Source of the DNA: Squalus acanthias
Taxonomy: Eukaryota
Direction of reading: 5' to 3'
Length of the DNA stretch: 64,000 nt
Assembly: GCA_030390025.1 (NCBI GenBank)
Contig: CM059432.1
Location: 87,794,001 to 87,858,000 of the forward strand
The translations under genes and the position numbers were made by a program. This document shows, in pieces, positions 3,751 to 64,000 of this stretch. The notes beneath the pieces are model-generated. The model was not told the origin of the DNA, made no database searches, and saw nothing but the letters and a program-made list of their open reading frames with translations. Position 1 is the first letter of the stretch. Every line of letters starts with the position of its first letter.

Positions 3751-4838
3751 AAATTTCAGTTACTAGGAAAAAATGCACCTGAAAGAAACTTCTGAAAGCA
3801 TTTTGCTTGATTTTTGGGAACCAGATGGCCGTACTAAGTAATCAAAGTGACAAGTTTACATAAGCAAAACTCAATATAAATATGGAAATAGGATTTTTAA
3901 TATAAAAAAAGACATAAAACTATAACAAAAATGTGACAACAGGAAGGCAAGTTGTGCAGACAGGGCCAGGAGAATAACCATTTCAGGAAATGTGCTGAAC
4001 CCACAGAATCATTCCCAAAGGAGAGAGCCCTGACAGGAAATTACTTCGTAAATGCCAGAAACAAAAGGATATGTACAAACAATTTATCCATGTTAAAAAA
4101 TCCACCAAGGAGGAGATTGTTTTCAACTGCCAAGCAAGTGGAGCAGCAAGAAAAAGACTCCAGGATGAAAAATAGCAGCAGTAGGGAGATGTAACTAAGG
4201 CGGGCTCCTCCTCATATGAGTTTGCTTAATGTTTTCCAAGATATGTGTCTCTTTGTAGAGCATATGTTGTGAACTCGTAAAATAAAGGTGCTATAATACA
4301 GAGGAGAGTGCTTTAATTTCTTGATACAATCGCATGGTTAGTGTGAATACAAAGGCCCAATTCTGGGTGGGGTTCTGCTGATCTCCTGCCATAACTCTGG
4401 TGGAATCCCCTGGATAGCGATGGAGAACCAGTTGCACTGGATGTCCACTGTTTCCAGGAGTTTCCGGCATGCCTTGCAAGGGGTAGAACCTGTGATGGGG
4501 ACTTCAAGGGTTCTCACCTAACTGGCTCAGTCGGGATTAGGTGTATCTGTGGAGGCCAGTATGAGTTGAGGCCAAATAGGCCAAGAAAGCAGCCTGGACT
4601 CCCAAAGGAAGTGGATTTAATAAAAGTGTCAAAATCGACCCCAGAGGGTTGAGAAGAACATGGTTAGTGTTGGGACATCACATTTTCTGGTCGCATGGTG
4701 CAGGTGGACCTGTAATGGTGATTGTCCCCATCTACCCCATGCAAATTAGGTGCCCTCTTACTGACCCCATAAATTACTGTGGGTCATAGAGCAAAGCTGG
4801 AATTGCGTCCTGAGGAATTCTGACTGCACGTTGTCTTT

Positions 4839-28773: not shown

Positions 28774-30360
28774 AATATTCTGTCACCTTTAACAACACTG
28801 ATTGCAGATCCAGTATCTGGCAGGTTCTGTATAGATAACTCTTAATATGGTGTGTGGGTTCTACCTTCAGATTCTATAGGTATCACTGGAATAATGTTTC
28901 GATGCTTGCATGCTTCACTTTCTGCTTCACATGATGCAGAAACCAGACAGCAACATAAAGTGACTGCATCTTGGCTGCCACAAAGAAGGGATACTCGTTT
29001 CTGGACTCGAAGAGAAAAGTAAGGATTAACTTGCTCTCAGTGGCGAACGAACGGCACTAGCCATTCGTTACACTTACACTTGCGCATAGACTTTTTGTAA
29101 ATTAGAGAGCCAAAAAGTGCAGCACCCGCTACAAAGCAATTAGCAACTGTGTATCTCCTTAACCAATCAGATTGAAGAATCGTTAATGAGCAGCGCAGAG
29201 TCCAAAGGAAGTATAAGTTGGAATATTGGGCCTGAATTTGCGGTCGGAGGCTTCCCATGGGCAAACGCCTCTGACCGCCAAAATAAATCCACGCCTACCT
29301 GAAATCTGTCCTCACACGGAGAGTTGCACTTTCAGTCTGCAGAGTCCTGGGCAGCATATGACGTCACGCTGCCCAGGAGCACAGCATGCGCGGAGCCTAG
29401 GGCTTCATTCGTAAGTGAGACCCGCCCACAAGACCTGTCACAATTTACATTTGCATAGACCACACCCCCATTTTTTTTTAACTGTGCAGAGCCTTCAGCA
29501 TTGAAAGCAGCTGTGCTTCTCAATGGTAAGCTTTTTTTTTATAGTTTTAAAAACCTTTGTAAACTTTTAAAGACTTTCACATGGATTAGAAGAATTTTAA
29601 ATAGTTTTAAAGACTTTTAAAGAGATTTAAAGCATTTTAAAGAGTTTTAAAAACCTTGAAATAATTTTCAATAATTTTAATTAAACAGCAACGTTAAATG
29701 GAAGGAGCAAACAAAGCTGTGATGATGAAGAGAGCTCAGAATTTTAATGATGATGACATCAGCACACTCGTCAATGAGGTTGAGGCGAAGTGCCTGCGGC
29801 TCATTGGGACCGCGAAGTCCAGAGCGCCTGCGCAAAGGACAAATAATAGCTTGGACAAAGGTTGTGCAGGCCGTTAGCGCTAACTCCACCATCCCATGGA
29901 CAGTGGAACAATGCCGTAAAAAATGTAATGACTTAATGCAATTTGCCAACGTTTGTACAGTTATTAGAAATGTCAAATGTAAAATTTTGTGAAATTTAAC
30001 TTTACTATTTTAAAACTTGTTTGGTTGCATAGTTGTTGTAAAGTGCCTTGATTATGCAGGCATCTTTCTGAGCTAGTCATAAAACTCATGGCTTTGGAGC
30101 TGGTCAGGGACACCTATTGTGCTTGTAAACATCTTATCTGTACTCCACAGATTTGAGGTGTGAAATTTCAATTAGTGAACAATACCCTGTCTCCAAAGCA
30201 GGTAGGTGGTCTCTGCAGCAAAAACTGAACTTTAATTTTCAATTCTGTTTTCAATTTAGAGTAAAATGGCACATAACGCCAGGGAGCGTGCCATGACAGG
30301 TGGTGGTGTTGCCACTCTGAGGGAGTTATCGGAGCAAGAGGAAAGGGTCACGCACTCAAT

Positions 30361-42571: not shown

Positions 42572-43660
42572 GTCTTCCAAAATTCCCTAGATTCTAGAAT
42601 GGTCCCAGCGGATTGGAAGGTAGCAAAAGTAACCCTGCTATTCAAGAAAGGAGGGAGAGAGAAAACAGGGAACTACAAGCCAGTTAGCCTGACATCGGTC
42701 ATCAGGAAAATGCAGGAATCCATTATTAAGGAAGTGGTAACAGGGCATTTAGAAAATCATAATATGATTAGGCAAAGTCAACATGGTTTTATGAAAGGGA
42801 AATAATGTTTAACAAATTTATTAGAGTTTTTTGAGGATGTAATGAGCAGGGTAGATAAAAGGGAACCAGTGGATGTAGTATATTTGGATTTCCAAAAGGC
42901 ATTCAATAAGGTGCCACGTAAAGGGTTGTTACGCAAGATAAGTGCTCATGGGGTTGGGGGTAATATATTAGCATGGATAGAGGATTGGTTAATGGACAGA
43001 AAACAGTATAGGGATAAACAGGTCATTTTCACGTTGGCAGGCTGTAACTAGTGGGGTGCCGCAAGTGATCAGTGTTTGGGCCTCAGCTATTTAATTTGTA
43101 TTAATGACTTAGATGAAGGGACCGAGTGTAATGTATCCAAGTTTGCTGATGATACAAAGCTAGGTGGGAAAGTAAGCTGTGAGGAGGACACAAAGAGCTT
43201 GCAAAGGGATATAGACAGGTTAAGTGAGTGGGAAAGAACATGGCAGATGGAATATAATGTGGGGAAATGTGAGGTTATTCACTTTGGTAGGAAGAATAGA
43301 AAAACTGAATATTTTTTAAATGGTGACAACTATTAAATGTTGGTGTTCAGAGAGATTTAGGTGTTAGCATGCAGGTACAGCAAGCAATTAGGAAGGCAAA
43401 TGTTGGCCTTTATTGCAAGGGGGTTGGAGTACAAGAGTAAGGAAGTCTTGCTACAATTGTACAGGGCTGTGGTGAGACCACACCTGGAGTACTGTGCACA
43501 GTTTTGGTTTCCTTATCTGAGGAAGGATATACTTGCCTCAGAGGTGGTTCAACGAAGGTTCACTAGATTTATTCCTGGGATGAGAGGGTTGTCCTATAGG
43601 AGAGATTGAGTAGATTGGGCCTATGCTCTTTGGAGTTTTGAAGAATAAGAGGTGATTTTT
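42572..43660 (+). mobile_element. CR1 LINE RT fragment
   Basis: YKPVSLTS, YLDFQKAFNKVP, KFADD, RPHLEYC in frameshifted ORFs. Confidence 0.92.
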
Positions 43661-43949
43661 TTTTAGGTCATGTCTATTTGCAACACCAAATTTCTGATTG
43701 GTCCCCTTGCAGGACAAGACCAGATTTCTGATTGGTCCCCTTGGAGCACAAGACACACCCAACAGTTTGTCTGGAATGTGAAATATGATCTTGTCTGCTG
43801 GAGCAATCAAGATCTTTGCAACGTGTAATTTGATCCATTCATTGTGACAGCCAGGCTCCAGAGCTCACAGTGCTAACACTACTGCTTTCAGATAACAGAC
43901 AGGGCTCACCTTCCCAGGTTAGGAGCAGTCATAGCGCTCACACTGCCAA

Positions 43950-44320
43950 GTTCAGATAGGAAGGGTGAGGCCATGGAGGGATTTTAACATGGGGATGAGA
44001 ATTTTAAAATGAAGGTGTTGGTGGACAACGTTCCCCTTAATATTCTTTTGGGTGCGCGGTCCCTTTAATGGGCTGCACGGCCCATTCAAAGTTTTGCACG
44101 TGCGCAAAATCTCCCATTCAAAAGCCGGTAAACGACCTGCGCAGTTTAGCGGGAACGTTGTTGGTAGACCATGAGCCAATGTAGGTCAACAAGCACAGGG
44201 GTGATGGGTGAATGGGACTTGCTGCGTGTTAGGATACAGGCAGCAGAGATTTGGATGAGCTCAAGTTCATTGAGGGTGAAAGATGGGAGGCCGGCCAGGA
44301 GAGCATTGGAATAGTTGAGT
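43950..44320 (-). mobile_element. L2-like LINE fragment
   Basis: HQHLHFKILIPMLKSLHGLTLP resembles an L2 ORF2 C-terminus. Confidence 0.6.
44026..44160. mobile_element. 135-bp hAT-type MITE
   Basis: TIRs caacgttccccttaa / ttagcgggaacgttg (13/15); 8-bp TSD ttggtgga/ttggtaga. Confidence 0.85.
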
Positions 44321-44759
44321 AAATGTAATGTTATGCATGTTGTAGAACCAACACAGAATACGCTCTCATTTTTAAAAATTAATTTACTTGTTTCCCATCC
44401 CTAGTTGCCCTTGAGAGGGTGGTAGTGAGCTGCCTTCTTGAACCACTGTGGTCTGGGGGCAGGGAGGAGAGGGAGAACGTGGTACAGATATAAAGGGGGT
44501 GGGGGTGGAAGAACATGATTCAGACCTAACAGAGGGTGGGAGAATGTGATCTATCTTCCCATCTGGATCTTGTTCTTGTTCTCACCCCCCACCTCCCCCC
44601 CTCCTTTAGACCTGGATCATGTTCTTCTCCCTCCCACTATTCTCACTGTGCTCCCTTACCAACAAGTTCCTGACCTTCTCCCCTCGAGTTCCTGACCTTC
44701 TCCCCCCGTGTTCCTGACCTTCTCCCCCTCTCCGAGCTACTCCCTCTCCGAGTTCTTCT

Positions 44760-46265
44760 CTCTCCGAGCTCCTCTCCCCCCACTTCGATCTCCTCTCCTC
44801 CCCCTTCGATCCTCTCTCCTCCCCCTTCGATCCCTCTCCACCCCCTTCGATCCCCTCTCCCCCCACTTTGATTCCGCCCTCCTCCCCCTTTGATTCCCCC
44901 CTCCTCCCTTCGATCCCTTCTCCTCCCCCCTCGATCCTCTCTCCTCCCCCTTCGATCTCCTCTCCTCCCCCTTTGATCCCTTCTCCTCCCCCCCTCTTCC
45001 CCTCTCCACCCCCTTCGATCCCCTCTCCCCCCCCTTTGATTCCCCCCTCCTCCCCCTTCGATCCCTTCTCCTCCCCCCCTCGATCCTCTCTCCTCCCCCT
45101 TCGATCTCCTCTCCTCCCCCTTCGATCCTCTCTCTTCCCCCTTCGATCCCCTCTCCTCCCCCTTCGATCCCCTCTCCCCCCCCTTCGATCCCCTCTCCCC
45201 CCACTTTGATCCCCTCTCCTCCCCCTTCGATCCCCTCTCCTCCCCCTTCGATCCTCTCTCTTCCCCCTTCGATCCCCTCTCCTCCCCCTTCGATCCCCTC
45301 TCCCCCCCTTCGATCCCCTCTCCCCCCACTTTGATCCCCTCTCCTCCCCCTTCGATCCTCTCTCCTCCCCCTTCGATCCTCTCTCCTCCCCCTTCGATCC
45401 TCTCTCCTCCCCCTTCGATCCTCTCTCCTCCCCCTTCAATCTCCTCTCCTCCCCCTTCGATCCTCTCTCCTCTCCCTTCGATCTCCTCTCCTCCCCCTTC
45501 GATCCCCTCTCCTCCCCCTTTGATCCCCTCTCCTCCCCCTTCGATCCCCTCTCCTCCCCCTTCGATCCCCTCTCCCCCCCCCTTCGATCCCCTCTCCCCC
45601 CACTTTGATCCCCTCTCCTCCCCCTTCGATCCTCTCTCCTCCCCCTTCAATCTCCTCTCCTCCCCCTTCGATCCTCTCTCCTCTCCCTTCGATCTCCTCT
45701 CCTCCCCCTTCGATCCCCTCTCCTCCCCCTTTGATCCCCTCTCCTCCCCCTTCGATCCCCTCTCCTCCCCCTTCGATCTCCTCTCCTCCCCCTTTGATCC
45801 CCTCTCCTCCCCCTTCGATCCTCTCTCCTCCCCCTTCGATCTCCTCTCCTCCCCCTTCGATCCTCTCTCCTCTCCCTTCGATCTCCTCTCCTCCCCCTTC
45901 GATCCCCTCTCCTCCCCCTTTGATCCCCTCTCCTCCCCCTTCGATCCCCTCTCCTCCCCCTTCGATCCTCTCTCCTCCCCCTTCAATCCTCTCTCCTCCC
46001 CCTTCGATCCTCTCTCCTCCCCCTTCGATCTCCTCTCCTCCCCCTTCGATCCCCTCTCCTCCCCCTTTGATCCCCTCTCCTCCCCCTTCGATCCCCTCTC
46101 CTCCCCCTTCGATCTCCTCTCCTCCCCCTTCGATCCCCTCTCCTCCCCCTTCGATCCCTCTCCTCCCCCTTCGATCCTCTCTCCTCCCCCTTCGATCCTC
46201 TCTCCTCCCCCTTCGATCCTCTCTCTTCCCCCTTCGATCCCTTCTCCTCCCCCTTCAATCCCCTC
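44760..46265. repeat. 21-bp minisatellite (ttcgatcccctctcctccccc)n
   Basis: About 70 tandem units read directly; pyrimidine-rich + strand. Confidence 0.97.
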
Positions 46266-46274
46266 AAATCTCCT

Positions 46275-49211
46275 CCTGCTCTCGCGGACCTGAGCGGGAG
46301 CGGCGGCAGGGGATGCAGCGGCATAAAGGGAGCTGAGCGGGTGACTTAAAAACAAAAAAATACCAAGGAGTGACGTCACAGGACAGCAGGTAGGTGATTG
46401 GTTGGTGAGTATTACAGCTCTTTTGCTCTGTAGGTTAGGTAAGTGGATTAAATTCAGAACTGGGAGACTACTTACTATAACTTTATTGAATTAATAACTG
46501 AAACTAAATTAACTCATTAAAACTAAATATTAAAACTAAAAATAATCGTTTGAATAAAAACTGTAACTAATTACATAAATAAAATAAGGTTGATAGAGAT
46601 GGCAGGGCAGGTGGTGTGTCGTTACTGCAGCATGTGGGATTTGGTGAAGACCAACGAGATCCTGAACAATCACATCTGCAGTAAGTGTCTGCAGCTCGAG
46701 GAACTTCAGCTCAGAGTTGTTGAGCTGGAGTCCGAGCTGCAGACATTGCAATGCATCAGGGAAGGGGAGAGTTACCTGGATACTTTGTTCCAGGAGGCAG
46801 TCACACCCCTTAGGTTAAGTAGTACTTTAGAGTTAGTCAATGGTCAGGGACAGGAGGGTGTGACTGCGAGTCAGGGAGGTATGGGGACCCAGGATATAGT
46901 GATGGAGGAACCTCAGCCCTTGACCAACAGGTACGAGGTATTTGCTACCTGTATGGATGAGAACAAGGACTGCAGGATGGATGGGAAAACTGACCACGGC
47001 ACCATGGTACAGGAGGCCATTCAAGTGGGGGGAGTAAAATGGAATGTGGTAGTGGTAGGTGACGGTAGGTGACAGTATAGTCAAGGGGATAGATACTGTT
47101 CTCTGCAGCCATGACAGGGAGTACCGAAGGCTGTGTTGCCAGGGTTAAGGACATCTCCTCGCGGCTGGAGACAAACTTGGAGTGGGAACGGGAGGATCCA
47201 GTTGTCGTGAGCCACGTAGGAACCAACAACATAGGTAGTACTAGGAATGAGGTTCTGCTGAGAGAGTTTGAGGAGTTGGGGTCCAAATTAAAAAGCAGAA
47301 CCTCAAAGGTAATAATCTCTGGAGTTTTACCTGAGCCACGCACCAATTGGCACAGGGATAAGCAGATTAGAAGGTTAAATGCATGGCTGAAAGAGTGGTG
47401 TGGGAGGCAGGGCTTTTGCTTCATGGGCCACTGACACCAGTACTGGGGAAAGTGGGAGCTGTTTCATTGGGACAGGCTCCACTTAAACCAGGCTGGAACC
47501 AGTGTCCTGGAAAATCGAATAACGTGGGCAGTAGACAGGGCTTTAAACTAATGAAGGGGAGGTGGGAGGATTCAGGAAAGAGTAAATTTAAAAGCAGCAA
47601 GAGAAACGTCAAGGCTCTAGAGCAGAGCAGAGTTTGGGGTAAAAATAAGCCGAGTGGATCAGAAGCGATAGAGAGAGTAACAAAGCTAATAGGGCATCAG
47701 TGACTAAAGTGACATCAGGGAAAAATAGAAAAAAGTCAAAACTAAAGGCACTATATCTGAATGTGCGGAGCATTCACAACAAAATAGATGATTTAATAGC
47801 GCAGATAGAAATTAACAGGTTTGATCTAATAGCCATAACGGAGACGTGGTTGCAAAGTGACCAAGGTTGGGAACTAAATATTCCAGGATACTTAACTTTT
47901 AGAAGAGATAGGCAAAATGAAAAAAGAGGAGGGGTAGCCCTGATAATAAAAGATGGGATAAAGACAGTAGAGAGAAAGGATCTTGGCTCCAAAAATCAAG
48001 AAGTAGAATCAGTTTGGGTGGAGCTAAGAAACAGCAAGGGACAGAAAACATTGGTGGGAGTTGTTTATAGGCCCCCAAACAATAGTTGTAATGTAGGGCA
48101 GAGTATAAATCAGGCGCATGTAACAAGGGTAATACAGTAATCATAGGGGAATTTAATCTACATATAGACTGGGCAAATCAAATTTGCAGTAATAATGTGG
48201 AGGACGAGTTCATGGAATGTATACAAGATAGTTTTCTCGATCAGTATGTTGAGGAACCAACTCGGGAACAGGTTATTTTAGATCTAGTATTATGCAATAG
48301 AAAGGGTTAATTAATAATCTTGTAGTAAAGGGGCCTTTAGGGAAGAGTGACCATAACATGGAAGAATTTTATATTGAGTTTGAAAGTGATTTATTTAAGT
48401 CCGAAACTAGGGTCTTAAATCTGAACAAAGCAAACTACGTAGGTATGAGGGATGAGTTGGCTAAGGTAGATTGGGAAACTACATTAAAAGGTATGATGGT
48501 AGACAAGCAATGGCTAGAATTTAAAGAATTAATACATAATTTACAACAATATACATTCCTTTAAGGCACAAAAACACCACAGGAAAGTGGTCCAACCTTT
48601 AGATCAAAGGAAGAGGCTTATAATGTTGCCAAAAAGAGTAGTAAGCCTGAAGATTGGGAGGATTTTAGAATTCAGCAAAGGAGGACCAAGAAATTGATAA
48701 GGAAAGAGAAAAAAGAATATGAGAGTAAATTAGCAAGAGACATAAAAACAGATTGTAAGCGTTTCTATAGGTATGTAAATAGGAAGAGATTAGTGAAAGT
48801 AAACGTGGGCCTATTAGGGGCAGAGAGAGGAGAAATTATAATGGGCAATAAGGAAATGGCAGAGACATTAAACAAATACTTTGTATCTGTCCTCATGGAA
48901 GAAGACACAAAAAAATTCCAGAAATAATGGGGAACCAAAGGTCTAGAGAGAATGAGGAATATAAAGAAATCAGTATAAATAAAAACATAGCGCTGGAGAA
49001 ATTAATGGGACAAAGTGGCAACAAATCCCCTGGACCTGATGACCTGCATCCTAGGGTTTTAAAAGAGGTAGCTGCAGAAATAGTAGATGCACTGGTATTA
49101 ATCTTCCAGAATTCCCGAGATTCTAGAACAGTCCCCAAGGATTGGAAGGTAGCAAACATAACCCCGCTATTTAAGAAAGGAGACCTCCTGCTCCTATTTC
49201 TTATGTTCTTA
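46275..49211 (+). mobile_element. CR1 LINE with 5' UTR, ORF1 (zinc finger, leucine zipper, SGNH esterase) and ORF2 5' half, internally deleted
   Basis: CRYCSMW..HICSKC..LQLRVVELESEL, VVVGD(S), HVGTNNIG, DRLHL; then LIAITETWL..KSPGPDDLHPRVLKE; jumps at ~49182 to ctcctgctcctatttcttatgttcttatg. 5' boundary approximate. Confidence 0.92.
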
Positions 49212-49400
49212 TGATCCCCTCTCCTCCCCCCTTCAATACCCTCTCCCCTCTTCGATCACTTCTCCTCACTCCTTTGAACCCCTCTCCTCCCTTCGATCCC
49301 CTCACCTCTCACCTTCGATCCCCTCACCTCTCCCCTTCGATCCCCTCTCCTCTCCCCCCTTTGATCCCCCTCCTTTCGCCCCAACCCATCTGATCCCCTG
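49212..49400. repeat. Degenerate continuation of the 21-bp minisatellite
   Basis: gatcccctctcctccccc and ttcgatcccctc units resume right after the CR1 tail. Confidence 0.9.
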
Positions 49401-49443
49401 AACTTCTCCGCACGGAGCTGAGGCCGCCGCACCATTTGGTACT

Positions 49444-52400
49444 GTGCATACATGACTGGAACGAGTGCACATGTACAAATGGATCGAGTGCGCATGTACA
49501 AATGGATCGAGTGCGTATGTGCAAATGGATCGAGTGCGCATACATGACTGGATCGAGTGCGCATGTACAAATGGATCGAGTGCGCATGTACAAATGGATC
49601 GAGTGCGTATGTGCAAATGGATCGAGTGCGCATACATGACTGGATCGAGTGTGCATGTACAAATGGATCGAGTGCGCATGTACAAATGGATCGAGTGCGC
49701 ATGTGCAAATGGATCGAGTGAGCATGTACAAATGGATCGAGTGCGTATGTACAAATGGATCGAGTGCGCATACATGACTGGATCGAGTGCACATGTACAA
49801 ATGGATCGAGTGCGTATGTACAAATGGATCGAGTGCGTATGTGCAAATGGATCGAGTGCGCATACATGACTGGATCGAGTGCGCATGTACAAATGGATCA
49901 AGTGCGCATGTACAAATGGATCGAGTGCGCATGTACAAATGGATCGAGTGCGCATGTACAAATGGATCGAGTGCACATGTACAAATGGATCGAGTGCGCA
50001 TGTACAAATGCATCGAGTGCGCATGTACAAATGGATCGAGTGCGCATACATGACTGGATCGAGTGCGCATGTACAAATGGATCGAGTGCGCATGTACAAA
50101 TGGATCGAGTGCGCATGTACAAATGGATCGAGTGCGCATGTGCAAATGGATCGAGTGCGCATACATGACTGGATCGAGTGCGCATGTACAAATGGATCGA
50201 GTGCGCATGTACAAATGGATCGAGTGCGCATGTACAAATGGATCGAGTGCGCATGTGCAAATGGATCGAGTGCGCATGTGCAAATGGATCGAGTGCACAT
50301 GTACAAATGGATCGAGTGCGCATGTGCAAATGGATTGAGTGCGCATGTGCAAACGGATCGAGTGCGCATGTGCAAATGGATCGAGTGCGCATACATGACT
50401 GGATCGAGTGCGCATACATGACTGGATCGAGTGCGCATGTGCAAATGGATCGAGTGCGCATGTACAAATGGATCGAGTGCGCATACATGACTGGATCGAG
50501 TGCACATGTACAAATGGATCGAGTGCGTATGTGCAAATGGATCGAGTGCGCATACATGACTGGATCGAGTGCGCATGTACAAATGGATCAAGTGCGCATG
50601 TACAAATGGATCGAGTGCGCATGTACAAATGGATCGAGTGCGCATGTGCAAATGGATCGAGTGAGCATGTACAAATGGATCGAGTGCGCATGTGCAAATG
50701 GATCGAGTGCGCATGTGCAAATGGATCGAGTGCACATGTACAAATGGATCGAGTGCGCATGTGCAAATGGATCGAGTGCACATGTACAAATGGATCGAGT
50801 GCGCATGTGCAAATGGATTGAGTGCGCATGTGCAAACGGATCGAGTGCGCATGTGCAAATGGATCGAGTGCGCATACATGACTGGATCGAGTGCGCATAC
50901 ATGACTGGATCGAGTGCGCATGTGCAAATGGATCGAGTGCGCATGTACAAATGGATCGAGTGCGCATGTGCAAATGGATCGAGTGCGCATGTGCAAATGG
51001 ATCGAGTGCGCATGTGCAAATGGATCGAGTGCGCATGTACAAATGGATCGAGTGCGCATGTGCAAATGGATCGAGTGCGCATGTGCAAACGGATCGAGTG
51101 CACATGTACAAATGGATCGAGTGCGCATGTGCAAATGGATCGAGTGCGCATGTGCAAATGGATTGAGTGCGCATGTGCAAACGGATCGAGTGCGCATGTG
51201 CAAATGGATCGAGTGCGCATACATGACAGGATCGAGTGCGCATACATGACTGGATCGAGTGCGCATACATGACTGGATCGAGTGCGCATACATGACTGGA
51301 TCGAGTGCGCATACATGACTGGATCGAGTGCGCTTGTGCAAATGGATCGAGTGCGCATGTACAAATGGATCGAGTGCGCATACATGACTGGATCGAGTGC
51401 ACATGTACAAATGGATCGAGTGCGTATGTGTAAATGGATCGAGTGCGCATACATGACTGGATCGAGTGCGCATGTACAAATGGATCGAGTGCGCATGTAC
51501 AAATGGATCGAGTGCGCATGTGCAAATGGATCGAGTGCGCATGTACAAATGGATCGAGTGCGCATACATGACTGGATCGAGTGCACATGTACAAATGGAT
51601 CGAATGCGCATGTACAAATGGATCGAGTGCGCATATACAAATGGATCGAGTGCGCATACATGACTGGATCGAGTGCGCATGTGCAAATGGATCGAGTGCG
51701 CATGTACAAATGGATTGAGTGCGCATGTGCAAATGGATCGAGTGCGCATGTGCAAATGGATCGAGTGCGCATGTGCAAATGGATCGAGTGCGCATGTACA
51801 AATGGATCGAGTGCGCATGTGCAAATGGATCGAGTGCGCATGTGCAAATGGATCGAGTGCGCATGTGCAAATGGATCGAGTGCGCATGTGCAAATGGATC
51901 GAGTGCGCATGTACAAATGGATTGAGTGCGCATACATGACTGGATCGAGTGCGCATACATGACTGGATCGAGTGCGCATGTACAAATGGATCGAGTGCGC
52001 ATGTACAAATGGATCGAGTGCGCATGTGCAAATGTATCGAGTGCGCATGTGCAAATGGATCGAGTGCGCATGTACAAATGGATCGAGTGCGCATGTACAA
52101 ATGGATCGAGTGTGCATGTACAAATGGATTGAGTGCGCATGTGCAAATGGATTGAGTGCGCATGTGCAAACGGATCGAGTGCGCATGTGCAAATGGATCG
52201 AGTGCGCATACATGACTGGATCGAGTGCGCATACATGACTGGATCGAGTGCGCATGTGCAAATGGATCGAGTGCGCATGTACAAATGGATCGAGTGCGCA
52301 TACATGACTGGATCGAGTGCACATGTACAAATGGATCGAGTGCGTATGTGCAAATGGATCGAGTGCGCATACATGACTGGATCGAGTGCGCATGTACAAA

Positions 52401-55400
52401 TGGATCAAGTGCGCATGTACAAATGGATCGAGTGCGCATGTACAAATGGATCGAGTGCGCATGTGCAAATGGATCGAGTGAGCATGTACAAATGGATCGA
52501 GTGCGCATGTGCAAATGGATCGAGTGCGCATGTGCAAATGGATCGAGTGCGCATGTACAAATGGATCGAGTGCGCATGTGCAAATGGATCGAGTGCGCAT
52601 GTACAAATGGATCGAGTGCGCATGTGCAAATGGATCGAGTGCGCATGTGCAAATGGATCGAGTGCGCATGTGCAAATGGATCGAGTGCGCATGTACAAAT
52701 GGATCGAGTGCGCATGTGCAAATGGATCGAGTGCGCATGTGCAAACGGATCGAGTGCACATGTACAAATGGATCGAGTGCGCATGTGCAAATGGATCGAG
52801 TGCGCATGTGCAAACGGATCGAGTGCACATGTACAAATGGATCGAGTGCGCATGTGCAAATGGATCGAGTGCGCATGTGCAAATGGATCGAGTGCGCATG
52901 TGCAAATGGATCGAGTGCGCATGTGCAAACGGATCGAGTGCACATGTACAAATGGATCGAGTGCGCATGTGCAAATGGATCGAGTGCGCATGTGCAAATG
53001 GATCGAGTGCGCATGTGCAAATGGATTGAGTGCGCATGTGCAAACGGATCGAGTGCGCATGTGCAAATGGATCGAGTGCGCATACATGACAGGATCGAGT
53101 GCGCATACATGACTGGATCGAGTGCGCATACATGACTGGATCGAGTGCGCATACATGACTGGATCGAGTGCGCATACATGACTGGATCGAGTGCGCTTGT
53201 GCAAATGGATCGAGTGCGCATGTACAAATGGATCGAGTGCGCATACATGACTGGATCGAGTGCACATGTACAAATGGATCGAGTGCGCATGTGCAAATGG
53301 ATCGAGTGCGCATGTGCAAATGGATTGAGTGCGCATGTGCAAACGGATCGAGTGCGCATGTGCAAATGGATCGAGTGCGCATACATGACAGGATCGAGTG
53401 CGCATACATGACTGGATCGAGTGCGCATACATGACTGGATCGAGTGCGCATACATGACTGGATCGAGTGCGCATACATGACTGGATCGAGTGCGCTTGTG
53501 CAAATGGATCGAGTGCGCATGTACAAATGGATCGAGTGCGCATACATGACTGGATCGAGTGCACATGTACAAATGGATCGAGTGCGTATGTGTAAATGGA
53601 TCGAGTGCGCATACATGACTGGATCGAGTGCGCATGTACAAATGGATCGAGTGCGCATGTACAAATGGATCGAGTGCGCATACATGACAGGATCGAGTGC
53701 GCATACATGACTGGATCGAGTGCGCATACATGACTGGATCGAGTGCGCATACATGACTGGATCGAGTGCGCATACATGACTGGATCGAGTGCGCATGTGC
53801 AAATGGATCGAGTGCGCATGTACAAATGGATCGAGTGCGCATACATGACTGGATCGAGTGCACATGTACAAATGGATCGAATGCGCATGTACAAATGGAT
53901 CGAGTGCGCATATACAAATGGATCGAGTGCGCATACATGACTGGATCGAGTGCGCATGTGCAAATGGATCGAGTGCGCATGTACAAATGGATTGAGTGCG
54001 CATGTGCAAATGGATCGAGTGCGCATGTGCAAATGGATCGAGTGCGCATGTGCAAATGGATCGAGTGAGCATGTACAAATGGATCGAGTGCGCATGTGCA
54101 AATGGATCGAGTGCGCATGTGCAAATGGATCGAGTGCGCATGTACAAATGGATCGAGTGCGCATGTGCAAATGGATCGAGTGCGCATGTACAAATGGATC
54201 GAGTGCGCATGTGCAAATGGATCGAGTGCGCATGTGCAAATGGATCGAGTGCGCATGTGCAAATGGATCGAGTGCGCATGTACAAATGGATCGAGTGCGC
54301 ATGTGCAAATGGATCGAGTGCGCATGTGCAAACGGATCGAGTGCACATGTACAAATGGATCGAGTGCGCATGTGCAAATGGATCGAGTGCGCATGTGCAA
54401 ATGGATTGAGTGCGCATGTGCAAACGGATCGAGTGCGCATGTGCAAATGGATCGAGTGCGCATAATGACAGGATCGAGTGCGCATACATGACTGGATCGA
54501 GTGCGCATACATGACTGGATCGAGTGCGCATACATGACTGGATCGAGTGCGCATACATGACTGGATCGAGTGCGCTTGTGCAAATGGATCGAGTGCGCAT
54601 GTACAAATGGATCGAGTGCGCATACATGACTGGATCGAGTGCACATGTACAAATGGATCGAGTGCGTATGTGTAAATGGATCGAGTGCGCATACATGACT
54701 GGATCGAGTGCGCATGTACAAATGGATCGAGTGCGCATGTACAAATGGATCGAGTGCGCATGTGCAAATGGATCGAGTGCGCATGTACAAATGGATCGAG
54801 TGCGCATACATGACTGGATCGAGTGCACATGTACAAATGGATCGAATGCGCATGTACAAATGGATCGAGTGCGCATATACAAATGGATCGAGTGCGCATA
54901 CATGACTGGATCGAGTGCGCATGTGCAAATGGATCGAGTGCGCATGTACAAATGGATTGAGTGCGCATGTGCAAATGGATCGAGTGCGCATGTGCAAATG
55001 GATCGAGTGCGCATGTGCAAATGGATCGAGTGCGCATGTACAAATGGATCGAGTGCGCATGTGCAAATGGATCGAGTGCGCATGTGCAAATGGATCGAGT
55101 GCGCATGTGCAAATGGATCGAGTGCGCATGTGCAAATGGATCGAGTGCGCATGTACAAATGGATTGAGTGCGCATACATGACTGGATCGAGTGCGCATAC
55201 ATGACTGGATCGAGTGCGCATGTACAAATGGATCGAGTGCGCATGTACAAATGGATCGAGTGCGCATGTGCAAATGTATCGAGTGCGCATGTGCAAATGG
55301 ATCGAGTGCGCATGTACAAATGGATCGAGTGCGCATGTACAAATGGATCGAGTGTGCATGTACAAATGGATTGAGTGCGCATGTGCAAATGGATTGAGTG

Positions 55401-58400
55401 CGCATGTGCAAACGGATCGAGTGCGCATGTGCAAATGGATCGAGTGCGCATACATGACTGGATCGAGTGCGCATACATGACTGGATCGAGTGCGCATGTG
55501 CAAATGGATCGAGTGCGCATGTACAAATGGATCGAGTGCGCATACATGACTGGATCGAGTGCACATGTACAAATGGATCGAGTGCGTATGTGCAAATGGA
55601 TCGAGTGCGCATACATGACTGGATCGAGTGCGCATGTACAAATGGATCAAGTGCGCATGTACAAATGGATCGAGTGCGCATGTACAAATGGATCGAGTGC
55701 GCATGTGCAAATGGATCGAGTGAGCATGTACAAATGGATCGAGTGCGCATGTGCAAATGGATCGAGTGCGCATGTGCAAATGGATCGAGTGCGCATGTAC
55801 AAATGGATCGAGTGCGCATGTGCAAATGGATCGAGTGCGCATGTACAAATGGATCGAGTGCGCATGTGCAAATGGATCGAGTGCGCATGTGCAAATGGAT
55901 CGAGTGCGCATGTGCAAATGGATCGAGTGCGCATGTACAAATGGATCGAGTGCGCATGTGCAAATGGATCGAGTGCGCATGTGCAAACGGATCGAGTGCA
56001 CATGTACAAATGGATCGAGTGCGCATGTGCAAATGGATCGAGTGCGCATGTGCAAACGGATCGAGTGCACATGTACAAATGGATCGAGTGCGCATGTGCA
56101 AATGGATCGAGTGCGCATGTGCAAATGGATCGAGTGCGCATGTGCAAATGGATCGAGTGCGCATGTGCAAACGGATCGAGTGCACATGTCCAAATGGATC
56201 GAGTGCGCATGTGCAAATGGATCGAGTGCGCATGTGCAAATGGATCGAGTGCGCATGTGCAAATGGATTGAGTGCGCATGTGCAAACGGATCGAGTGCGC
56301 ATGTGCAAATGGATCGAGTGCGCATACATGACAGGATCGAGTGCGCATACATGACTGGATCGAGTGCGCATACATGACTGGATCGAGTGCGCATACATGA
56401 CTGGATCGAGTGCGCATACATGACTGGATCGAGTGCGCTTGTGCAAATGGATCGAGTGCGCATGTACAAATGGATCGAGTGCGCATACATGACTGGATCG
56501 AGTGCACATGTACAAATGGATCGAGTGCGCATGTGCAAATGGATCGAGTGCGCATGTGCAAATGGATTGAGTGCGCATGTGCAAACGGATCGAGTGCGCA
56601 TGTGCAAATGGATCGAGTGCGCATACATGACAGGATCGAGTGCGCATACATGACTGGATCGAGTGCGCATACATGACTGGATCGAGTGCGCATACATGAC
56701 TGGATCGAGTGCGCATACATGACTGGATCGAGTGCGCTTGTGCAAATGGATCGAGTGCGCATGTACAAATGGATCGAGTGCGCATACATGACTGGATCGA
56801 GTGCACATGTACAAATGGATCGAGTGCGTATGTGTAAATGGATCGAGTGCGCATACATGACTGGATCGAGTGCGCATGTACAAATGGATCGAGTGCGCAT
56901 GTACAAATGGATCGAGTGCGCATACATGACAGGATCGAGTGCGCATACATGACTGGATCGAGTGCGCATACATGACTGGATCGAGTGCGCATACATGACT
57001 GGATCGAGTGCGCATACATGACTGGATCGAGTGCGCATGTGCAAATGGATCGAGTGCGCATGTACAAATGGATCGAGTGCGCATACATGACTGGATCGAG
57101 TGCACATGTACAAATGGATCGAATGCGCATGTACAAATGGATCGAGTGCGCATATACAAATGGATCGAGTGCGCATACATGACTGGATCGAGTGCGCATG
57201 TGCAAATGGATCGAGTGCGCATGTACAAATGGATTGAGTGCGCATGTGCAAATGGATCGAGTGCGCATGTGCAAATGGATCGAGTGCGCATGTGCAAATG
57301 GATCGAGTGAGCATGTACAAATGGATCGAGTGCGCATGTGCAAATGGATCGAGTGCGCATGTGCAAATGGATCGAGTGCGCATGTACAAATGGATCGAGT
57401 GCGCATGTGCAAATGGATCGAGTGCGCATGTACAAATGGATCGAGTGCGCATGTGCAAATGGATCGAGTGCGCATGTGCAAATGGATCGAGTGCGCATGT
57501 GCAAATGGATCGAGTGCGCATGTACAAATGGATCGAGTGCGCATGTGCAAATGGATCGAGTGCGCATGTGCAAACGGATCGAGTGCACATGTACAAATGG
57601 ATCGAGTGCGCATGTGCAAATGGATCGAGTGCGCATGTGCAAATGGATTGAGTGCGCATGTGCAAACGGATCGAGTGCGCATGTGCAAATGGATCGAGTG
57701 CGCATACATGACAGGATCGAGTGCGCATACATGACTGGATCGAGTGCGCATACATGACTGGATCGAGTGCGCATACATGACTGGATCGAGTGCGCATACA
57801 TGACTGGATCGAGTGCGCTTGTGCAAATGGATCGAGTGCGCATGTACAAATGGATCGAGTGCGCATACATGACTGGATCGAGTGCACATGTACAAATGGA
57901 TCGAGTGCGCATGTGCAAATGGATCGAGTGCGCATGTGCAAATGGATTGAGTGCGCATGTGCAAACGGATCGAGTGCGCATGTGCAAATGGATCGAGTGC
58001 GCATACATGACAGGATCGAGTGCGCATACATGACTGGATCGAGTGCGCATACATGACTGGATCGAGTGCGCATACATGACTGGATCGAGTGCGCATACAT
58101 GACTGGATCGAGTGCGCTTGTGCAAATGGATCGAGTGCGCATGTACAAATGGATCGAGTGCGCATACATGACTGGATCGAGTGCACATGTACAAATGGAT
58201 CGAGTGCGTATGTGTAAATGGATCGAGTGCGCATACATGACTGGATCGAGTGCGCATGTACAAATGGATCGAGTGCGCATGTACAAATGGATCGAGTGCG
58301 CATGTGCAAATGGATCGAGTGCGCATGTACAAATGGATCGAGTGCGCATACATGACTGGATCGAGTGCACATGTACAAATGGATCGAATGCGCATGTACA

Positions 58401-61400
58401 AATGGATCGAGTGCGCATATACAAATGGATCGAGTGCGCATACATGACTGGATCGAGTGCGCATGTGCAAATGGATCGAGTGCGCATGTACAAATGGATT
58501 GAGTGCGCATGTGCAAATGGATCGAGTGCGCATGTGCAAATGGATCGAGTGCGCATGTGCAAATGGATCGAGTGCGCATGTGCAAATGGATCGAGTGCGC
58601 ATGTGCAAATGGATCGAGTGCGCATGTGCAAATGGATCGAGTGCGCATGTGCAAATGGATCGAGTGCGCATGTGCAAATGGATCGAGTGCGCATGTACAA
58701 ATGGATTGAGTGCGCATACATGACTGGATCGAGTGCGCATACATGACTGGATCGAGTGCGCATGTACAAATGGATCGAGTGCGCATGTACAAATGGATCG
58801 AGTGCGCATGTGCAAATGTATCGAGTGCGCATGTGCAAATGGATCGAGTGCGCATGTACAAATGGATCGAGTGCGCATGTACAAATGGATCGAGTGTGCA
58901 TGTACAAATGGATTGAGTGCGCATGTGCAAATGGATTGAGTGCGCATGTGCAAACGGATCGAGTGCGCATGTGCAAATGGATCGAGTGCGCATACATGAC
59001 TGGATCGAGTGCGCATACATGACTGGATCGAGTGCGCATGTGCAAATGGATCGAGTGCGCATGTACAAATGGATCGAGTGCGCATACATGACTGGATCGA
59101 GTGCACATGTACAAATGGATCGAGTGCGTATGTGCAAATGGATCGAGTGCGCATACATGACTGGATCGAGTGCGCATGTACAAATGGATCAAGTGCGCAT
59201 GTACAAATGGATCGAGTGCGCATGTACAAATGGATCGAGTGCGCATGTGCAAATGGATCGAGTGAGCATGTACAAATGGATCGAGTGCGCATGTGCAAAT
59301 GGATCGAGTGCGCATGTGCAAATGGATCGAGTGCGCATGTACAAATGGATCGAGTGCGCATGTGCAAATGGATCGAGTGCGCATGTACAAATGGATCGAG
59401 TGCGCATGTGCAAATGGATCGAGTGCGCATGTGCAAATGGATCGAGTGCGCATGTGCAAATGGATCGAGTGCGCATGTACAAATGGATCGAGTGCGCATG
59501 TGCAAATGGATCGAGTGCGCATGTGCAAACGGATCGAGTGCACATGTACAAATGGATCGAGTGCGCATGTGCAAATGGATCGAGTGCGCATGTGCAAATG
59601 GATTGAGTGCGCATGTGCAAACGGATCGAGTGCGCATGTGCAAATGGATCGAGTGCGCATACATGACAGGATCGAGTGCGCATACATGACTGGATCGAGT
59701 GCGCATACATGACTGGATCGAGTGCGCATACATGACTGGATCGAGTGCGCATACATGACTGGATCGAGTGCGCTTGTGCAAATGGATCGAGTGCGCATGT
59801 ACAAATGGATCGAGTGCGCATACATGACTGGATCGAGTGCACATGTACAAATGGATCGAGTGCGTATGTGTAAATGGATCGAGTGCGCATACATGACTGG
59901 ATCGAGTGCGCATGTACAAATGGATCGAGTGCGCATGTACAAATGGATCGAGTGCGCATGTGCAAATGGATCGAGTGCGCATGTACAAATGGATCGAGTG
60001 CGCATACATGACTGGATCGAGTGCACATGTACAAATGGATCGAATGCGCATGTACAAATGGATCGAGTGCGCATATACAAATGGATCGAGTGCGCATACA
60101 TGACTGGATCGAGTGCGCATGTGCAAATGGATCGAGTGCGCATGTACAAATGGATTGAGTGCGCATGTGCAAATGGATCGAGTGCGCATGTGCAAATGGA
60201 TCGAGTGCGCATGTGCAAATGGATCGAGTGCGCATGTACAAATGGATCGAGTGCGCATGTGCAAATGGATCGAGTGCGCATGTGCAAATGGATCGAGTGC
60301 GCATGTGCAAATGGATCGAGTGCGCATGTGCAAATGGATCGAGTGCGCATGTACAAATGGATTGAGTGCGCATACATGACTGGATCGAGTGCGCATACAT
60401 GACTGGATCGAGTGCGCATGTACAAATGGATCGAGTGCGCATGTGCAAATGTATCGAGTGCGCATGTGCAAATGGATCGAGTGCGCCTGTACAAATGGAT
60501 CGAGTGCGCATGTACAAATGGATCGAGTGTGCATGTACAAATGGATTGAGTGCGCATGTACAAATGGATGGAGTGCGCATGTGCAAATGGATCGAGTGCG
60601 CATGTACAAATGGATCGAGTGCGCATGTACAAATGGATTGAGTGCGCATGTACAAATGGATCGAGTGCGCATGTGCAAATGGATCGAGTGCGCATGTGCA
60701 AATGGATCGAGTGCGCATGTGCAAATGGATCGAGTGCGCATGTGCAAATGGATCGAGTGCGCATGTACAAATGGATTGAGTGCGCATACATGACTGGATC
60801 GAGTGCGCATACATGACTGGATCGAGTGCGCATGTACAAATGGATCGAGTGCGGATGTACAAATGGATCGAGTGCGCATGTACAAATGGATCGAGTGCGC
60901 ATGTACAAATGGATCGAGTGCGCATGTGCAAATGGATCGAGTGCGCATGTACAAATGGATCGAGTGCGCATGTACAAATGGATCGAGTGCGCATGTGCAA
61001 ATGGATCGAGTGCACATGTACAAATGGATCGAGTGCGCATGTGCAAATGTATCGAGTGCGCATGTGCAAATGGATCGAGTGCGCATGTACAAATGGATCG
61101 AGTGCGCATGTACAAATGGATCGAGTGTGCATGTACAAATGGATTGAGTGCGCATGTACAAATGGATCGAGTGTGCATGTACAAATGGATCGAGTGCGCA
61201 TGTACAAATGGATCGAGTGCGCATGTGCAAATGGTTCGAGTGCGCATGTACAAATGGATCGAGTGCGCATGTACAAATGGATCGAGTGTGCATGTACAAA
61301 TGGATCGAGTGCGCATGTACAAATGGATGGAGTGCGCATGTGCAAATGGATCGAGTGCGCATGTACAAATGGATCGAGTGTGCATGTACAAATGGATTGA

Positions 61401-61987
61401 GTGCGCATGTAAAAATGGATCGAGTGCGCATGTACAAATGGATCGAGTGCGCATGTGCAAATGGATTGAGTGCGCATGTGCAAACGGATCGAGTGCGCAT
61501 GTGCAAATGGATCGAGTGCACATGTACAAATGGATCGAGTGCGCATGTGCAAATGGATCGAGTGCGCATGTGCAAATGGATTGAGTGCGCATGTGCAAAT
61601 GGATCGAGTGCGCATGTGCAAATGGATCGAGTGCGCATGTGCAAATGGATCGATTGCGCATGTGCAAATGGATCGAGTGCGCATACATGACTGGATTGAG
61701 TGCGCATACATGACTGGATCGAGTGCGCATACATGACTGGATCGAATGCGCATGTGCAAATGGATCGAGTGCGCATGTGCAAATGGATCGAGTGTGCATG
61801 TGCAAATGGATCGAGTGCGCATACATGACTGGATCGAGTGCGCATACATGACTGGATCGAGTGCGCATGTACAAATGGATCGAGTGCGCATGTACAAATG
61901 GATCGAGTGCGCATGTACAAATGGATCGAGTGCGCATGTACAAATGGATCGAGTGCGCATGTACAAATGGATCGAGTGCGCATGTAC
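49444..61987. repeat. 23-bp satellite array, ~545 units, with higher-order structure
   Basis: Main units tggatcgagtgcgcatgtacaaa, tggatcgagtgcgcatgtgcaaa and tggatcgagtgcgcatacatgac; copy number estimated as length/23. Confidence 0.99.
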
Positions 61988-62044
61988 AGTACCAAACGGG
62001 CACGCATGCACAGAGGGAGTCAAAAAGCCGTGCAAATAATCACT

Positions 62045-62465
62045 CCGTTTTTTTTATTCGTTCATGGGATATAGGCATCGCTGGCAAGGCCAGCATTTAT
62101 TATCCATTCCTAATTGCCCTTGAGAAGGTGGTGGTGAGCCACCTTCTTGAACCGCTGCAGTCCGTGTGGTAAAGATACTCCCACAGTGCTGTTAGGGATG
62201 GAGTTCCAGGATTTTGACCCAACGACGCTGAAGGAACGGCGATATATTTCCAAGTCAGGATGGTGTGTGACTTGGAGGGGAACTTGGAGGTGATGGTGTT
62301 CCCATGAGCCTGCTGCGCTTGTCCTTCTAGGTGGTAGAGGTTGCGGGTTTGGGAGGTGCCGTTGAAGAAGCTTTGACGAGTTGCTGCAGTGCATCTTGTA
62401 GATGGTACACAGCTACGGTGTCTCGGTGGTGCAGGGAGAGAATGTTTAAGGTGGTAGATGGTGGT
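62045..62465 (-). mobile_element. 3' end of the same LINE family as 6868-9480
   Basis: Closely parallels 6875-7270 (HTILTWKYIAVP..GSKSWNS); T-run at ~62048. Confidence 0.9.
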
Positions 62466-62853
62466 CATTGAAACATTTCAGATTCTATGAACGATTGACA
62501 GGGTAGATGCTGAGAGGTTGTTTCCCCTGGCTGGAGAATCCAGAACTAGGGGGCATAGTCTCAGGATAAGGAGTCAGCCATGTAAGACTGAGATGAGGAG
62601 GAATTTCTTCACTCAGAGAGTTGTGAATCTTTGGAATTATCTAGCCCAAAGGGTTGGAGATGCTGAATCTTTGAGAATATTCAAGGCTGAGATAGATAGA
62701 TTTTTGGACTCTAGGGGAATCAAGGGATATGAAGATCGGGCGGGAAAGTGGATTGAGGTCGTAGATCAACCATGATCTTATTGAATGATGGAGCAGGCTC
62801 GAGGGGCCATATGACCTACTCCTGCTCTTAATTCTTATGTTCTTATGTTCTTA
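62466..62853 (+). mobile_element. CR1 LINE 3' fragment
   Basis: FPLAGESRTRGHSLRI..RRNFFTQRVVNLWN; (ttcttatg)n tail. Confidence 0.92.
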
Positions 62854-63049
62854 TTAGTCCTTAAGCACATGCCACGCCACTCCTGTAGACTTCAGGCAAT
62901 TTTAAAGAAGTCTAGAAAGCACCAAACTTCTACAACTCAGCAACAGATATTAGAAATCAATCAGAAATGAACCTGTAAGTAGGTGATGATCCCTTTAAAA
63001 TAGCACTGATGGGGTCCTTCCTGATACTGAATGCATGTTCAGCTGTGCG

Positions 63050-63280
63050 AGGTTAAGAGAGAGCGTTAGCTCCAGTGTTGAGGTCAAAAATGGAGTGCTG
63101 GCCTCAAGATCTGCCTCCTCTGAATACATACGGCCCATGCTCCCAGCGTGGACGCTAACACCCTCACCAAAATGGTGCCTGGCACGGCCCGCACCAGAAG
63201 TGTGCGTGCACTGCTCGGATGCCATTTTCAGCATCCATAGCACCCAAACAACTGACACTGCTCAATCGATTTTCTAGCCC
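63050..63280. mobile_element. Probable non-autonomous Harbinger remnant
   Basis: Right end gatttctagccc is the reverse complement of the gggctagaaat TIR seen at 4839 and 36087; left end not resolved. Confidence 0.45.
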
Positions 63281-64000
63281 TTTAACTCTGACATGTTTTT
63301 AGGTTGGGAGTTTGTAGTGTTGCATCCAGCTTTTCAGAAGTAGGTTCTTTGGCACCTTCACAGTAGCCCAGACGTTTTGACTGGTTCTGAAAAATATTAC
63401 ACATAACATTCTGTGACCTCGTAAGTGGTGCTGCACCCTTTCCAGCTGCCACAGATGTTCCTCTTCAATCTTTCCAGTTATCAAACTATAGTCAAAAGCT
63501 GACAGATTCCCTTTTTCAGCCATTGTACTATTCAATATATTATTCTTTGGCTGATGGCATAGGTGCAGCCCATTCCATACTGGAGTGAATTATAACAATT
63601 ATGCATAATAATATAGTTAAGGCTCGTATCTATCATCTTATAGGATTTGTTGAAAGGTGTGCAAGAGCAACAACCTAATGGACTTTTGTCATCCTGCAGG
63701 TTTGGCAGCCAGGGTCAGACTTGGATACTGGCCCACTTCTAAGTATGGTAAGTGTATAAACGTCGATTTTAACCTGAAGCAGACAATGGGCAGTCGGAGT
63801 GCACCCGTTGTGGGTGTGAAGCCTGAGCCATTTGAGGCCCAGGCCTCAGTTACCTGCCGCTGGGGAGTTGTGGGCACATGCTGCAGCTTGCTGCTTGTGG
63901 GTGGACAGGAAACCATCAGACTCCCACACTGAGCTGGCTGACAGTCAGACCCGGGGGTTGGGAGTCAATCCCGGGGGCCTCAGATGGGGTGGTAGCAGGA

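What the first reader, a model, noticed from the sequence alone, without database searches (positions are those of the whole stretch)
49435..61996. The 12.5-kb satellite is bracketed by a 15-bp inverted repeat
Seen: tttggtactgtgcat (49435-49449) and atgtacagtaccaaa (61982-61996) are reverse complements at 14/15 and sit exactly at the array edges. No convincing TSD. Inference: the array grew from the centre of a small palindrome such as GTACTG-CGCATGCG-CAGTAC, either a MITE interior or a palindromic regulatory element, capturing satellite birth at its seed.
Basis: partly seen in the sequence, partly recalled or inferred. Interest (0 to 1): 0.75.

Follow-up and report, generated by a model that had tools for sequence, protein, structure and literature searches.

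The report
Satellite born inside a transposon hairpin
A 12.5-kb run of 23-base repeats grew out of the loop of a small DNA hairpin inside an old dispersed repeat whose other copies still carry the unexpanded hairpin, which makes it a clear example of an already known way for repeat DNA to arise.

Summary
The inverted repeat is real: 14/15 as stated, and 3 of 200,000 random flank pairs score as well. It is not a transposon end. Public contigs from four organisms laid on the right edge show that both flanks belong to an old dispersed repeat that runs on beyond the inverted repeat on both sides and stops at about 62,047. Its other copies join the window's left flank to its right flank across a single spacer. 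That unexpanded allele is a hairpin with 22-bp arms. Each arm holds the palindrome GCGCATGCGC, so the arms are also direct repeats, exactly 23 bp apart, which is the array's period. A slip between them, CpG decay and later block duplications explain 545 units in two fully linked classes. A contig from a related organism appears to carry the same locus with at least two units. The host element's class is unresolved. Birth of tandem arrays between short direct repeats inside mobile elements is known, and earlier unchecked notes report other transposon-derived arrays in this genome.

The parts
49443..61988 (+). Tandem array, 545 units of 23 bp (one of 22 bp) plus a final arm; two classes, A (423) and B (121 plus the 22-bp unit)
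49432..49453 (+). Left arm of the ancestral hairpin; its inner 10 bp (49444-49453) is a decayed copy of the palindrome GCGCATGCGC (4 differences) and starts the first, B-class unit
   Evidence: loose ends match 49428-49457 at 25 of 30 (my alignment by eye, all 5 differences transitions)
61978..61999 (+). Right arm of the ancestral hairpin; its inner 10 bp is a decayed palindrome (2 differences), same letters as 133 A-class units
   Evidence: letters at 61985 and 61986 in dispersed copies restore the palindrome (table 3)
62002..62011 (+). Third decayed copy of the palindrome, 24 bp after the right-arm copy
   Evidence: A>G at 62002 and 62010 are the commonest other letters in all four runs
62000..62047 (+). 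Right end segment of the dispersed host repeat; family similarity stops at 62044-62050
   Evidence: 25 of the 32 listed pieces end at 62044-62050; loose ends behind 62043-62047 are long and heterogeneous (agreement 0.45-0.58)
49375..49431 (+). Left flank; at least 49422-49431 is shared with dispersed copies, further left not tested
   Evidence: loose ends before 61954, 61969 and 61970 (30 letters only)
62048..62460 (-). 3' fragment of a LINE (T-run tail at 62048) inserted at or beside the element's right end; serves as a locus marker
   Evidence: 87% match to 6878-7278, which lies beside an RT frame; X19 record 9 spans the junction
44771..49374 (+). Neighbouring 21-bp tandem array (44771-46265 and 49213-49374) split by an internally deleted CR1-type LINE (about 46268-49212); possibly part of the same host element, not shown

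Best explanation
The array is a locus-specific tandem expansion of the interior of a hairpin in an old, dispersed, non-coding repeat. (1, shown) Ordinary copies carry one hairpin: two 22-bp inverted arms around a 13-nt spacer. (2, shown) The inner 10 bp of each arm is the palindrome GCGCATGCGC, so the two arms are also an 11-bp direct repeat exactly 23 bp apart; one arm core plus the spacer is the monomer. (3, inferred) Replication slippage or unequal exchange between these direct repeats, perhaps helped by the hairpin stalling the polymerase, duplicated core+spacer; this leaves the outer arm halves at the two edges, which is the 'bracketing' inverted repeat. (4, inferred from shown differences) While the array was short, CpG decay made two unit classes, B (like the left arm) and A (like the right arm). 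(5, shown pattern, inferred process) Unequal crossing-over then copied blocks of up to 74 units to reach 545 units, mainly in the lineage of organism A. The array has most likely no function of its own; it no longer folds consistently and holds no intact palindrome.
For:: listed loose ends read the window's left flank and one arm straight into the right-edge sequence in 29 of 144 contigs laid (X1, organism A), 16 of 74 (X19, F), 21 of 100 (X23, G) and 21 of 72 (X6, B); only 24 of 193 loose-end rows were shown, so these are lower bounds. The joint maps 49458 onto 61969, an offset of 12,511 = 543x23+22. T61985C is carried by 354/445, 439/572 and 318/367 of summed depth in F, G and B; A61986G by 170/445, 310/572 and 253/367. 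Loose ends give C-G at the spacer site (before 61969) and C-A (before 61970) where the window has T-G: three states of one CpG. Left and right edge joined by coordinate fold into one hairpin, -12.5 kcal/mol vs -5.9 +/- 1.8 in 300 shuffles, z -3.6. Arm type and spacer type are fully linked, 121 B vs 423 A, 0 recombinants in 544. Longest identical block 74 units at a 141-unit offset vs at most 9 in 30 shuffles; 1.5% mean difference from the nearest of three master units. Rare units sit at the edges: 5 of the first 50, 2 of the middle 430, 12 of the last 65. X19 record 9 is colinear over 61945-62070, including the LINE junction and a second spacer, at depth 10.8.
Against: Only 128 bp of the right edge were laid, once; the unexpanded allele is read from 30-letter consensus loose ends (agreement 0.56-0.86) and no full copy was fetched. 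X19's consensus before 61969 matches only in its last ~19 letters. Record 9 has 14 differences, the same number an unexpanded orthologue would give (14-15); I read it as two-spacer only because it aligns without a deletion to 61945 while other unexpanded contigs stop at 61954. Whether class A was copied from the right arm or converted the right arm later cannot be told: the shared letters are also cheap CpG changes. The slip itself is not observed. The left end, target site and class of the host repeat are unknown (one search found no inverted partner of the right end in 1-49430).
Confidence: 0.85

Rival explanations
1. A pre-existing, genome-wide 23-bp satellite was inserted or converted into the hairpin, rather than growing from it (the route proposed for Xenopus miDNA4).
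For: Other arrays in this genome turned out to be members of abundant families according to earlier unchecked notes (e1-7790172, e1-7790274). I had no whole genome to count arrays.
Against: The monomer is the hairpin's own core+spacer, in exact register at both edges. Summed depth over the monomer in X1 (about 1,900-4,800, single contigs about 5-21) is of the order expected from this one array; the tool warns that depth is no copy number, so this is a hint only.
Confidence: 0.07
2. The 15-bp inverted repeat is the pair of terminal inverted repeats of a MITE whose interior expanded.
For: The inverted repeat is real and dispersed copies exist.
Against: Shared sequence continues past the inverted repeat on both sides in all four organisms; similarity ends 48 bp further right, at 62044-62050. 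No TSD at the arms.
Confidence: 0.02
3. A short real array whose length was inflated by the assembler.
For: Identical blocks of up to 1.7 kb inside the array; short-read contigs cannot span it.
Against: X1 depth over the second-last unit is 1,913-3,860 against 22-220 in the other three runs, so the monomer is truly abundant in organism A; 33 unit variants form an ordered pattern with diverged edges.
Confidence: 0.04
4. The expansion was favoured because the units bind NRF1 and the block acts as a regulatory element or decoy.
For: The ancestral palindrome equals the NRF1 consensus decamer (PMC10810270, passages); 203 units are one base from the 12-mer, a change whose mirror-image cut binding only about 2-fold in that paper.
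Against: No unit keeps the intact decamer (0 in the array); three or four ancestral CpG sites decayed, which points to a methylated history; no host gene was seen in the window (LINE and Harbinger remnants only); no binding or expression data.
Confidence: 0.06

Closest known systems
Minisatellite birth between short direct repeats (Haber and Louis 1998; seen only as described in passages of PMC6947457 and PMC2820488)
   Same: First duplication between very short direct repeats that flank the future unit; unit length equals their distance; later growth by slippage, conversion or unequal crossing-over.
   Different: Here the direct repeats exist because each arm of an inverted repeat contains a palindrome, so the array ends up bracketed by an inverted repeat; the array is 12.5 kb; unexpanded sister copies survive in four organisms.
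Tandem repeats inside MITEs and related elements: Xenopus Xstir/Xmix and miDNA4, clam DTC84 (passages of PMC12628747, PMC9659126, PMC3879986; primary Xenopus papers not seen)
   Same: A non-coding dispersed element whose interior exists as one unit or as an array; DTC84 units carry a palindrome at the unit junction and ordered variant types.
   Different: Units there are 86-160 bp (Xstir length recalled) and arrays inside elements are short (DTC84 and DINE-1-like usually up to about 6); miDNA4 is thought to have captured an existing repeat. Here the unit is made from the element's own hairpin, and the element is not shown to be a MITE.
Helentron-associated HINE / DINE-1 elements with central tandem repeats (PMC4067079, passages)
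   Same: No TSD seen, AT-rich flanks, palindromic motifs within 60 bp of one end, internal tandem repeats.
   Different: No subterminal inverted partner found, no clear 3' stem-loop, flanks not clearly T-runs; membership not shown.
Sugar-beet minisatellite BvMSat05 (PMC2820488, passages)
   Same: Array adjoining a conserved motif with nested palindromes; slippage at secondary structure proposed.
   Different: There the motif flanks one side and the arrays meet head to head; here the array sits inside the hairpin and the progenitor allele is in hand.

Membership tests
Direct-repeat-seeded minisatellite (Haber-Louis type) | Short direct repeats flank the unit in the unexpanded allele, their distance equal to the period | tested here: met
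   Arm cores 23 bp apart in the collapsed allele and in loose ends of four runs; period 23
Direct-repeat-seeded minisatellite (Haber-Louis type) | Unexpanded or short alleles exist at homologous sites | tested here: met
   One-spacer alleles in 29/144, 16/74, 21/100, 21/72 contigs laid (listed rows only); these are paralogous copies, the orthologue (X19 record 9) appears to have two or more spacers
MITE with the 15-bp repeat as termini | Similarity between copies stops at the inverted repeats | tested here: not met
   It continues on both sides; right end at 62044-62050
MITE / TIR element (whole host repeat) | Terminal inverted repeat matching the right end | tested here: inconclusive
   No partner in window 1-49430, best 12 of 18; the left end may be lost or not yet located
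MITE / TIR element (whole host repeat) | Target-site duplication | not testable with these tools
   Left end unknown; a LINE sits at the right end; no genome held
Helentron HINE / DINE-1 | Subterminal inverted repeats at both ends and a short 3' stem-loop | tested here: inconclusive
   Palindromes lie 36-69 bp from the right end, but the end segment folds weakly (-4.5 kcal/mol) and no partner end was found
Helentron HINE / DINE-1 | T-rich target, T-runs at both ends, no TSD | tested here: inconclusive
   4 of 32 listed pieces run on along the T-run to 62054-62055; listed loose ends behind the end begin mostly with A
SINE / LINE end | A-rich or simple-repeat tail, tRNA-type head or RT frame | tested here: inconclusive
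   Loose-end consensus is A-rich but of low agreement; no Rfam match at gathering score in 43500-50000, 9 weak matches
Multi-locus satellite DNA family | Long arrays of the monomer at several loci | tested here: inconclusive
   No genome to count in; X1 depth is of the order of one such array (not a copy number)
NRF1 binding site | Intact GCGCATGCGC decamer | tested here: not met
   0 in the array; 203 units one base off the 12-mer; intact in the family consensus
NRF1 binding site | Binding in vivo | not testable with these tools
   needs chromatin data

The most novel reading that the evidence does not exclude
The host family is a pre-loaded satellite seed: three NRF1-type palindromes at 23- and 24-bp spacing make every copy prone to in-register slips, so independent arrays of predictable period arise at many loci across sharks; and this array, with 203 near-consensus NRF1 sites in 12.5 kb, acts as a methylation-gated NRF1 sink or enhancer. 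Hints only: two-spacer contigs in organisms F and G, and six X23 contigs whose loose end at 62005 reads arm+spacer straight into the third palindrome, as a 24-bp slip would.
Probability: 0.12. Interest if true: 0.65.

Novelty: new member of a known kind. Interest (0 to 1): 0.4.

Why it matters
Reviews note that the first duplication that starts a tandem array is the least documented step (PMC3879986 and PMC6947457, passages). This locus gives the progenitor, a sequence reason for the unit length, a probable short intermediate in a relative, and the expanded end state. It offers a simple rule that can be searched for: an inverted repeat whose arms contain a palindrome is also a direct repeat, so arrays born this way are bracketed by an inverted repeat that can be mistaken for transposon ends. 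It does not point to a new kind of element or a function.

Tried and rejected
No whole genome is held, so copies could not be counted. No second copy of either flank in the window. Earlier findings by sequence and place: nothing for this locus. Metagenome scans: 0 hits; 3 hits that are chance, with 14, 14 and 20 of 57 upstream bases matching. No inverted partner of the right end. Rfam over 43500-50000: 9 matches, all far below gathering score. Array interior folding: z -0.02, -0.79, -3.02, 0.80, -1.41 at five places, so no consistent structure. Long open frames through the array are by-products of a stop-free repeat; not treated as genes. Low depth over the second-last unit in organisms F, G and B (22-31 at 61945-61949) is not proof that they lack an array: contigs are filtered and diverged units would be missed. 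One search had a one-base phase error; its unit table and divergence figures were discarded and redone. 18 of the 20 runs that I did not lay are not used; small word shares there are not evidence. Literal search for three 15-17-nt motifs of the element in PMC and bioRxiv full text: 0 papers; repeat libraries (Repbase, Dfam, species libraries) and supplements were not searchable, so the family may already be catalogued.
Full report
Observation. The array between them has period 23 and about 545 copies. Part of each 15-mer lies in the first or last unit, so I held the inner bases fixed and replaced the outer ten by random window flanks: 3 of 200,000 pairs reached 14. The inverted repeat is not chance.

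Setting. The window is made of LINE remnants (RT and endonuclease domains) and Harbinger-type DDE_Tnp_4 remnants (7 frames scanned, 6 with a Pfam match). No host gene was noticed among the frames of 120 aa or more in 1-49400. That the organism is a shark rests on my recall of the LINE tails and on earlier unchecked notes for this genome; I did not test it. No genome was held.

The array. Cut in register it has 545 units and a final arm. Each unit is a 12-bp arm-like part and an 11-bp spacer. There are two classes, B (121, plus the one 22-bp unit) and A (423); arm type and spacer type never recombine (0 of 544). The first unit is B, the last arm is A. Units differ from the nearest of three masters by 1.5% per base; identical blocks reach 74 units at an offset of 141 units, against at most 9 in 30 shuffles of unit order. 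Rare units cluster at the edges (5 of 50, 2 of 430, 12 of 65), as expected when unequal exchange homogenises the middle (established pattern, my knowledge).

One search found 24 runs in 8 studies holding part of 61900-64000. I laid 4 of them, one each from organisms A, F, G and B, on 61945-62072 at 80% likeness. All are assembled contigs. 144, 74, 100 and 72 contigs were laid, most under 90% alike, with many CpG-type changes. So the right flank is part of an old dispersed repeat shared by all four organisms. Of the 32 pieces listed (391 in all; the longest are kept), 25 end at 62044-62050, and the loose ends behind that point are long and disagree with each other (0.45-0.58): this is the element's right end, 48 bp beyond the inverted repeat. 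On the other side the loose ends agree and read the window's left flank followed by one arm: 29 of 144, 16 of 74, 21 of 100 and 21 of 72 contigs in the 24 rows shown of 193. The best X1 consensus matches 49428-49457 at 25 of 30 by my alignment; all five differences are transitions, four at CpG. The joint equates 49458 with 61969, exactly 544 units apart. These copies are the unexpanded allele.

What the seed is. With the letters of the dispersed copies (loose ends, and T61985C and A61986G in table 3), the allele is a hairpin with 22-bp arms and a 13-nt spacer. The inner ten bases of each arm are GCGCATGCGC. A palindrome reads the same in both arms, so the arms share an 11-bp direct repeat whose two copies are 23 bp apart. 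That is the period. Even with this locus's decayed letters the two edges, joined by coordinate, fold into one hairpin (z -3.6), whereas the array interior does not fold consistently (1 of 5 places below z -2). A third palindrome lies 24 bp further right. The spacer shows C-G, C-A and T-G at one site in different copies, which marks an ancestral CpG; the A and B masters differ from the ancestral unit at 4-5 positions, 3-4 of them CpG changes (my comparison).

Mechanism. Shown: the progenitor, the register, the two classes, the block duplications. Inferred: a slip or unequal exchange between the two palindromes duplicated core+spacer and pushed the outer arm halves apart; the short array decayed at CpG sites into A and B; later unequal crossing-over multiplied blocks. 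Whether A came from the right arm or overwrote it cannot be told. On timing, X19 record 9 (organism F) is colinear over the whole stretch, across the LINE junction and through a second spacer, at single-contig depth; X23 record 17 (organism G) also reaches 61945 without a gap. This suggests two or more units before A and F split. The caution is that record 9's 14 differences equal what an unexpanded orthologue would give; I favour the two-spacer reading because other unexpanded contigs stop aligning at 61954. Summed depth at 61945-61949 is 1,913 in X1 and 22-31 in the others, a hint that the large expansion is confined to A and could come from this one array; the tool states that depth is no copy number.

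What is not settled. The host element's left end, target site and class. No inverted partner of the right end lies in 1-49430. MITE termini at the 15-bp repeat are excluded; TIR element, Helentron-type and retroelement readings all remain open. The 21-bp array to the left carries the reverse complement of a hexamer in the 23-bp spacer and may belong to the same element.

Comparison with what is known. Birth of minisatellites between short direct repeats, often inside transposons, is described (PMC6947457 and PMC2820488, passages; the primary paper was not seen). Arrays inside MITEs and Helentrons are reviewed in PMC9659126 and PMC12628747 and described in PMC3879986 and PMC4067079 (passages). 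The Squalomix preprint 10.1101/2025.06.08.657570 (passages; supplements closed) reports shark and ray regions rich in simple tandem repeats. Paper searches did not show this family or the palindrome-in-arm route, but they cover open-licence text only and no repeat library. Earlier notes for this genome list several other arrays grown inside transposons, so the event is common here.

Function. The ancestral decamer is the NRF1 consensus (PMC10810270, passages). The array has no intact copy, but 203 units are one base off, a change whose mirror image cost about 2-fold in that study. That NRF1 is blocked by CpG methylation is recalled, not looked up. With decayed CpGs and no gene nearby, a regulatory role is unlikely and untested.

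Verdict. Real, well explained, and a clean case of a known process: interest 0.4.

Noticed in passing
window 44771-46265 and 49213-49374: A 21-bp tandem array split by an internally deleted CR1-type LINE (about 46268-49212). Its unit carries CGATCC (47 copies), the reverse complement of GGATCG in the 23-bp spacer (495 copies); 5 in the other 44 kb. The two arrays may be expansions within one element.
   Followed up: partly
window 44499-44542 and 44593-44637: Imperfect inverted repeat with 45-bp arms (80%), followed by three 22-bp repeats at 44665-44728; could be the centre or left part of the host element. Rfam gives only weak hairpin matches.
   Followed up: partly
window 44026-44160: 135-bp element with short terminal inverted repeats starting CAACGTT and an 8-bp duplication matching at 7 of 8, inserted in a LINE; looks like a hAT-type MITE (class from recall).
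   Followed up: no
window 5400-42500: At least six remnants of one Harbinger-type family in both orientations (80-94% alike), with DDE_Tnp_4 frames and 42-bp internal repeats.
   Followed up: no
window 62002-62011; run X23 loose end before 62005: Six contigs of organism G read arm+spacer directly into the third palindrome, as a 24-bp deletion between palindromes 2 and 3 would give (agreement 0.55; could be misalignment).
   Followed up: no
window 62048-62853: Two LINE 3' fragments of different families lie head to head (minus strand 62048-62460, plus strand about 62462-62853), so the element's original right flank may be lost.
   Followed up: no
window 29541-29680: AT-rich 10/20-bp periodic repeat, not examined.
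   Followed up: no
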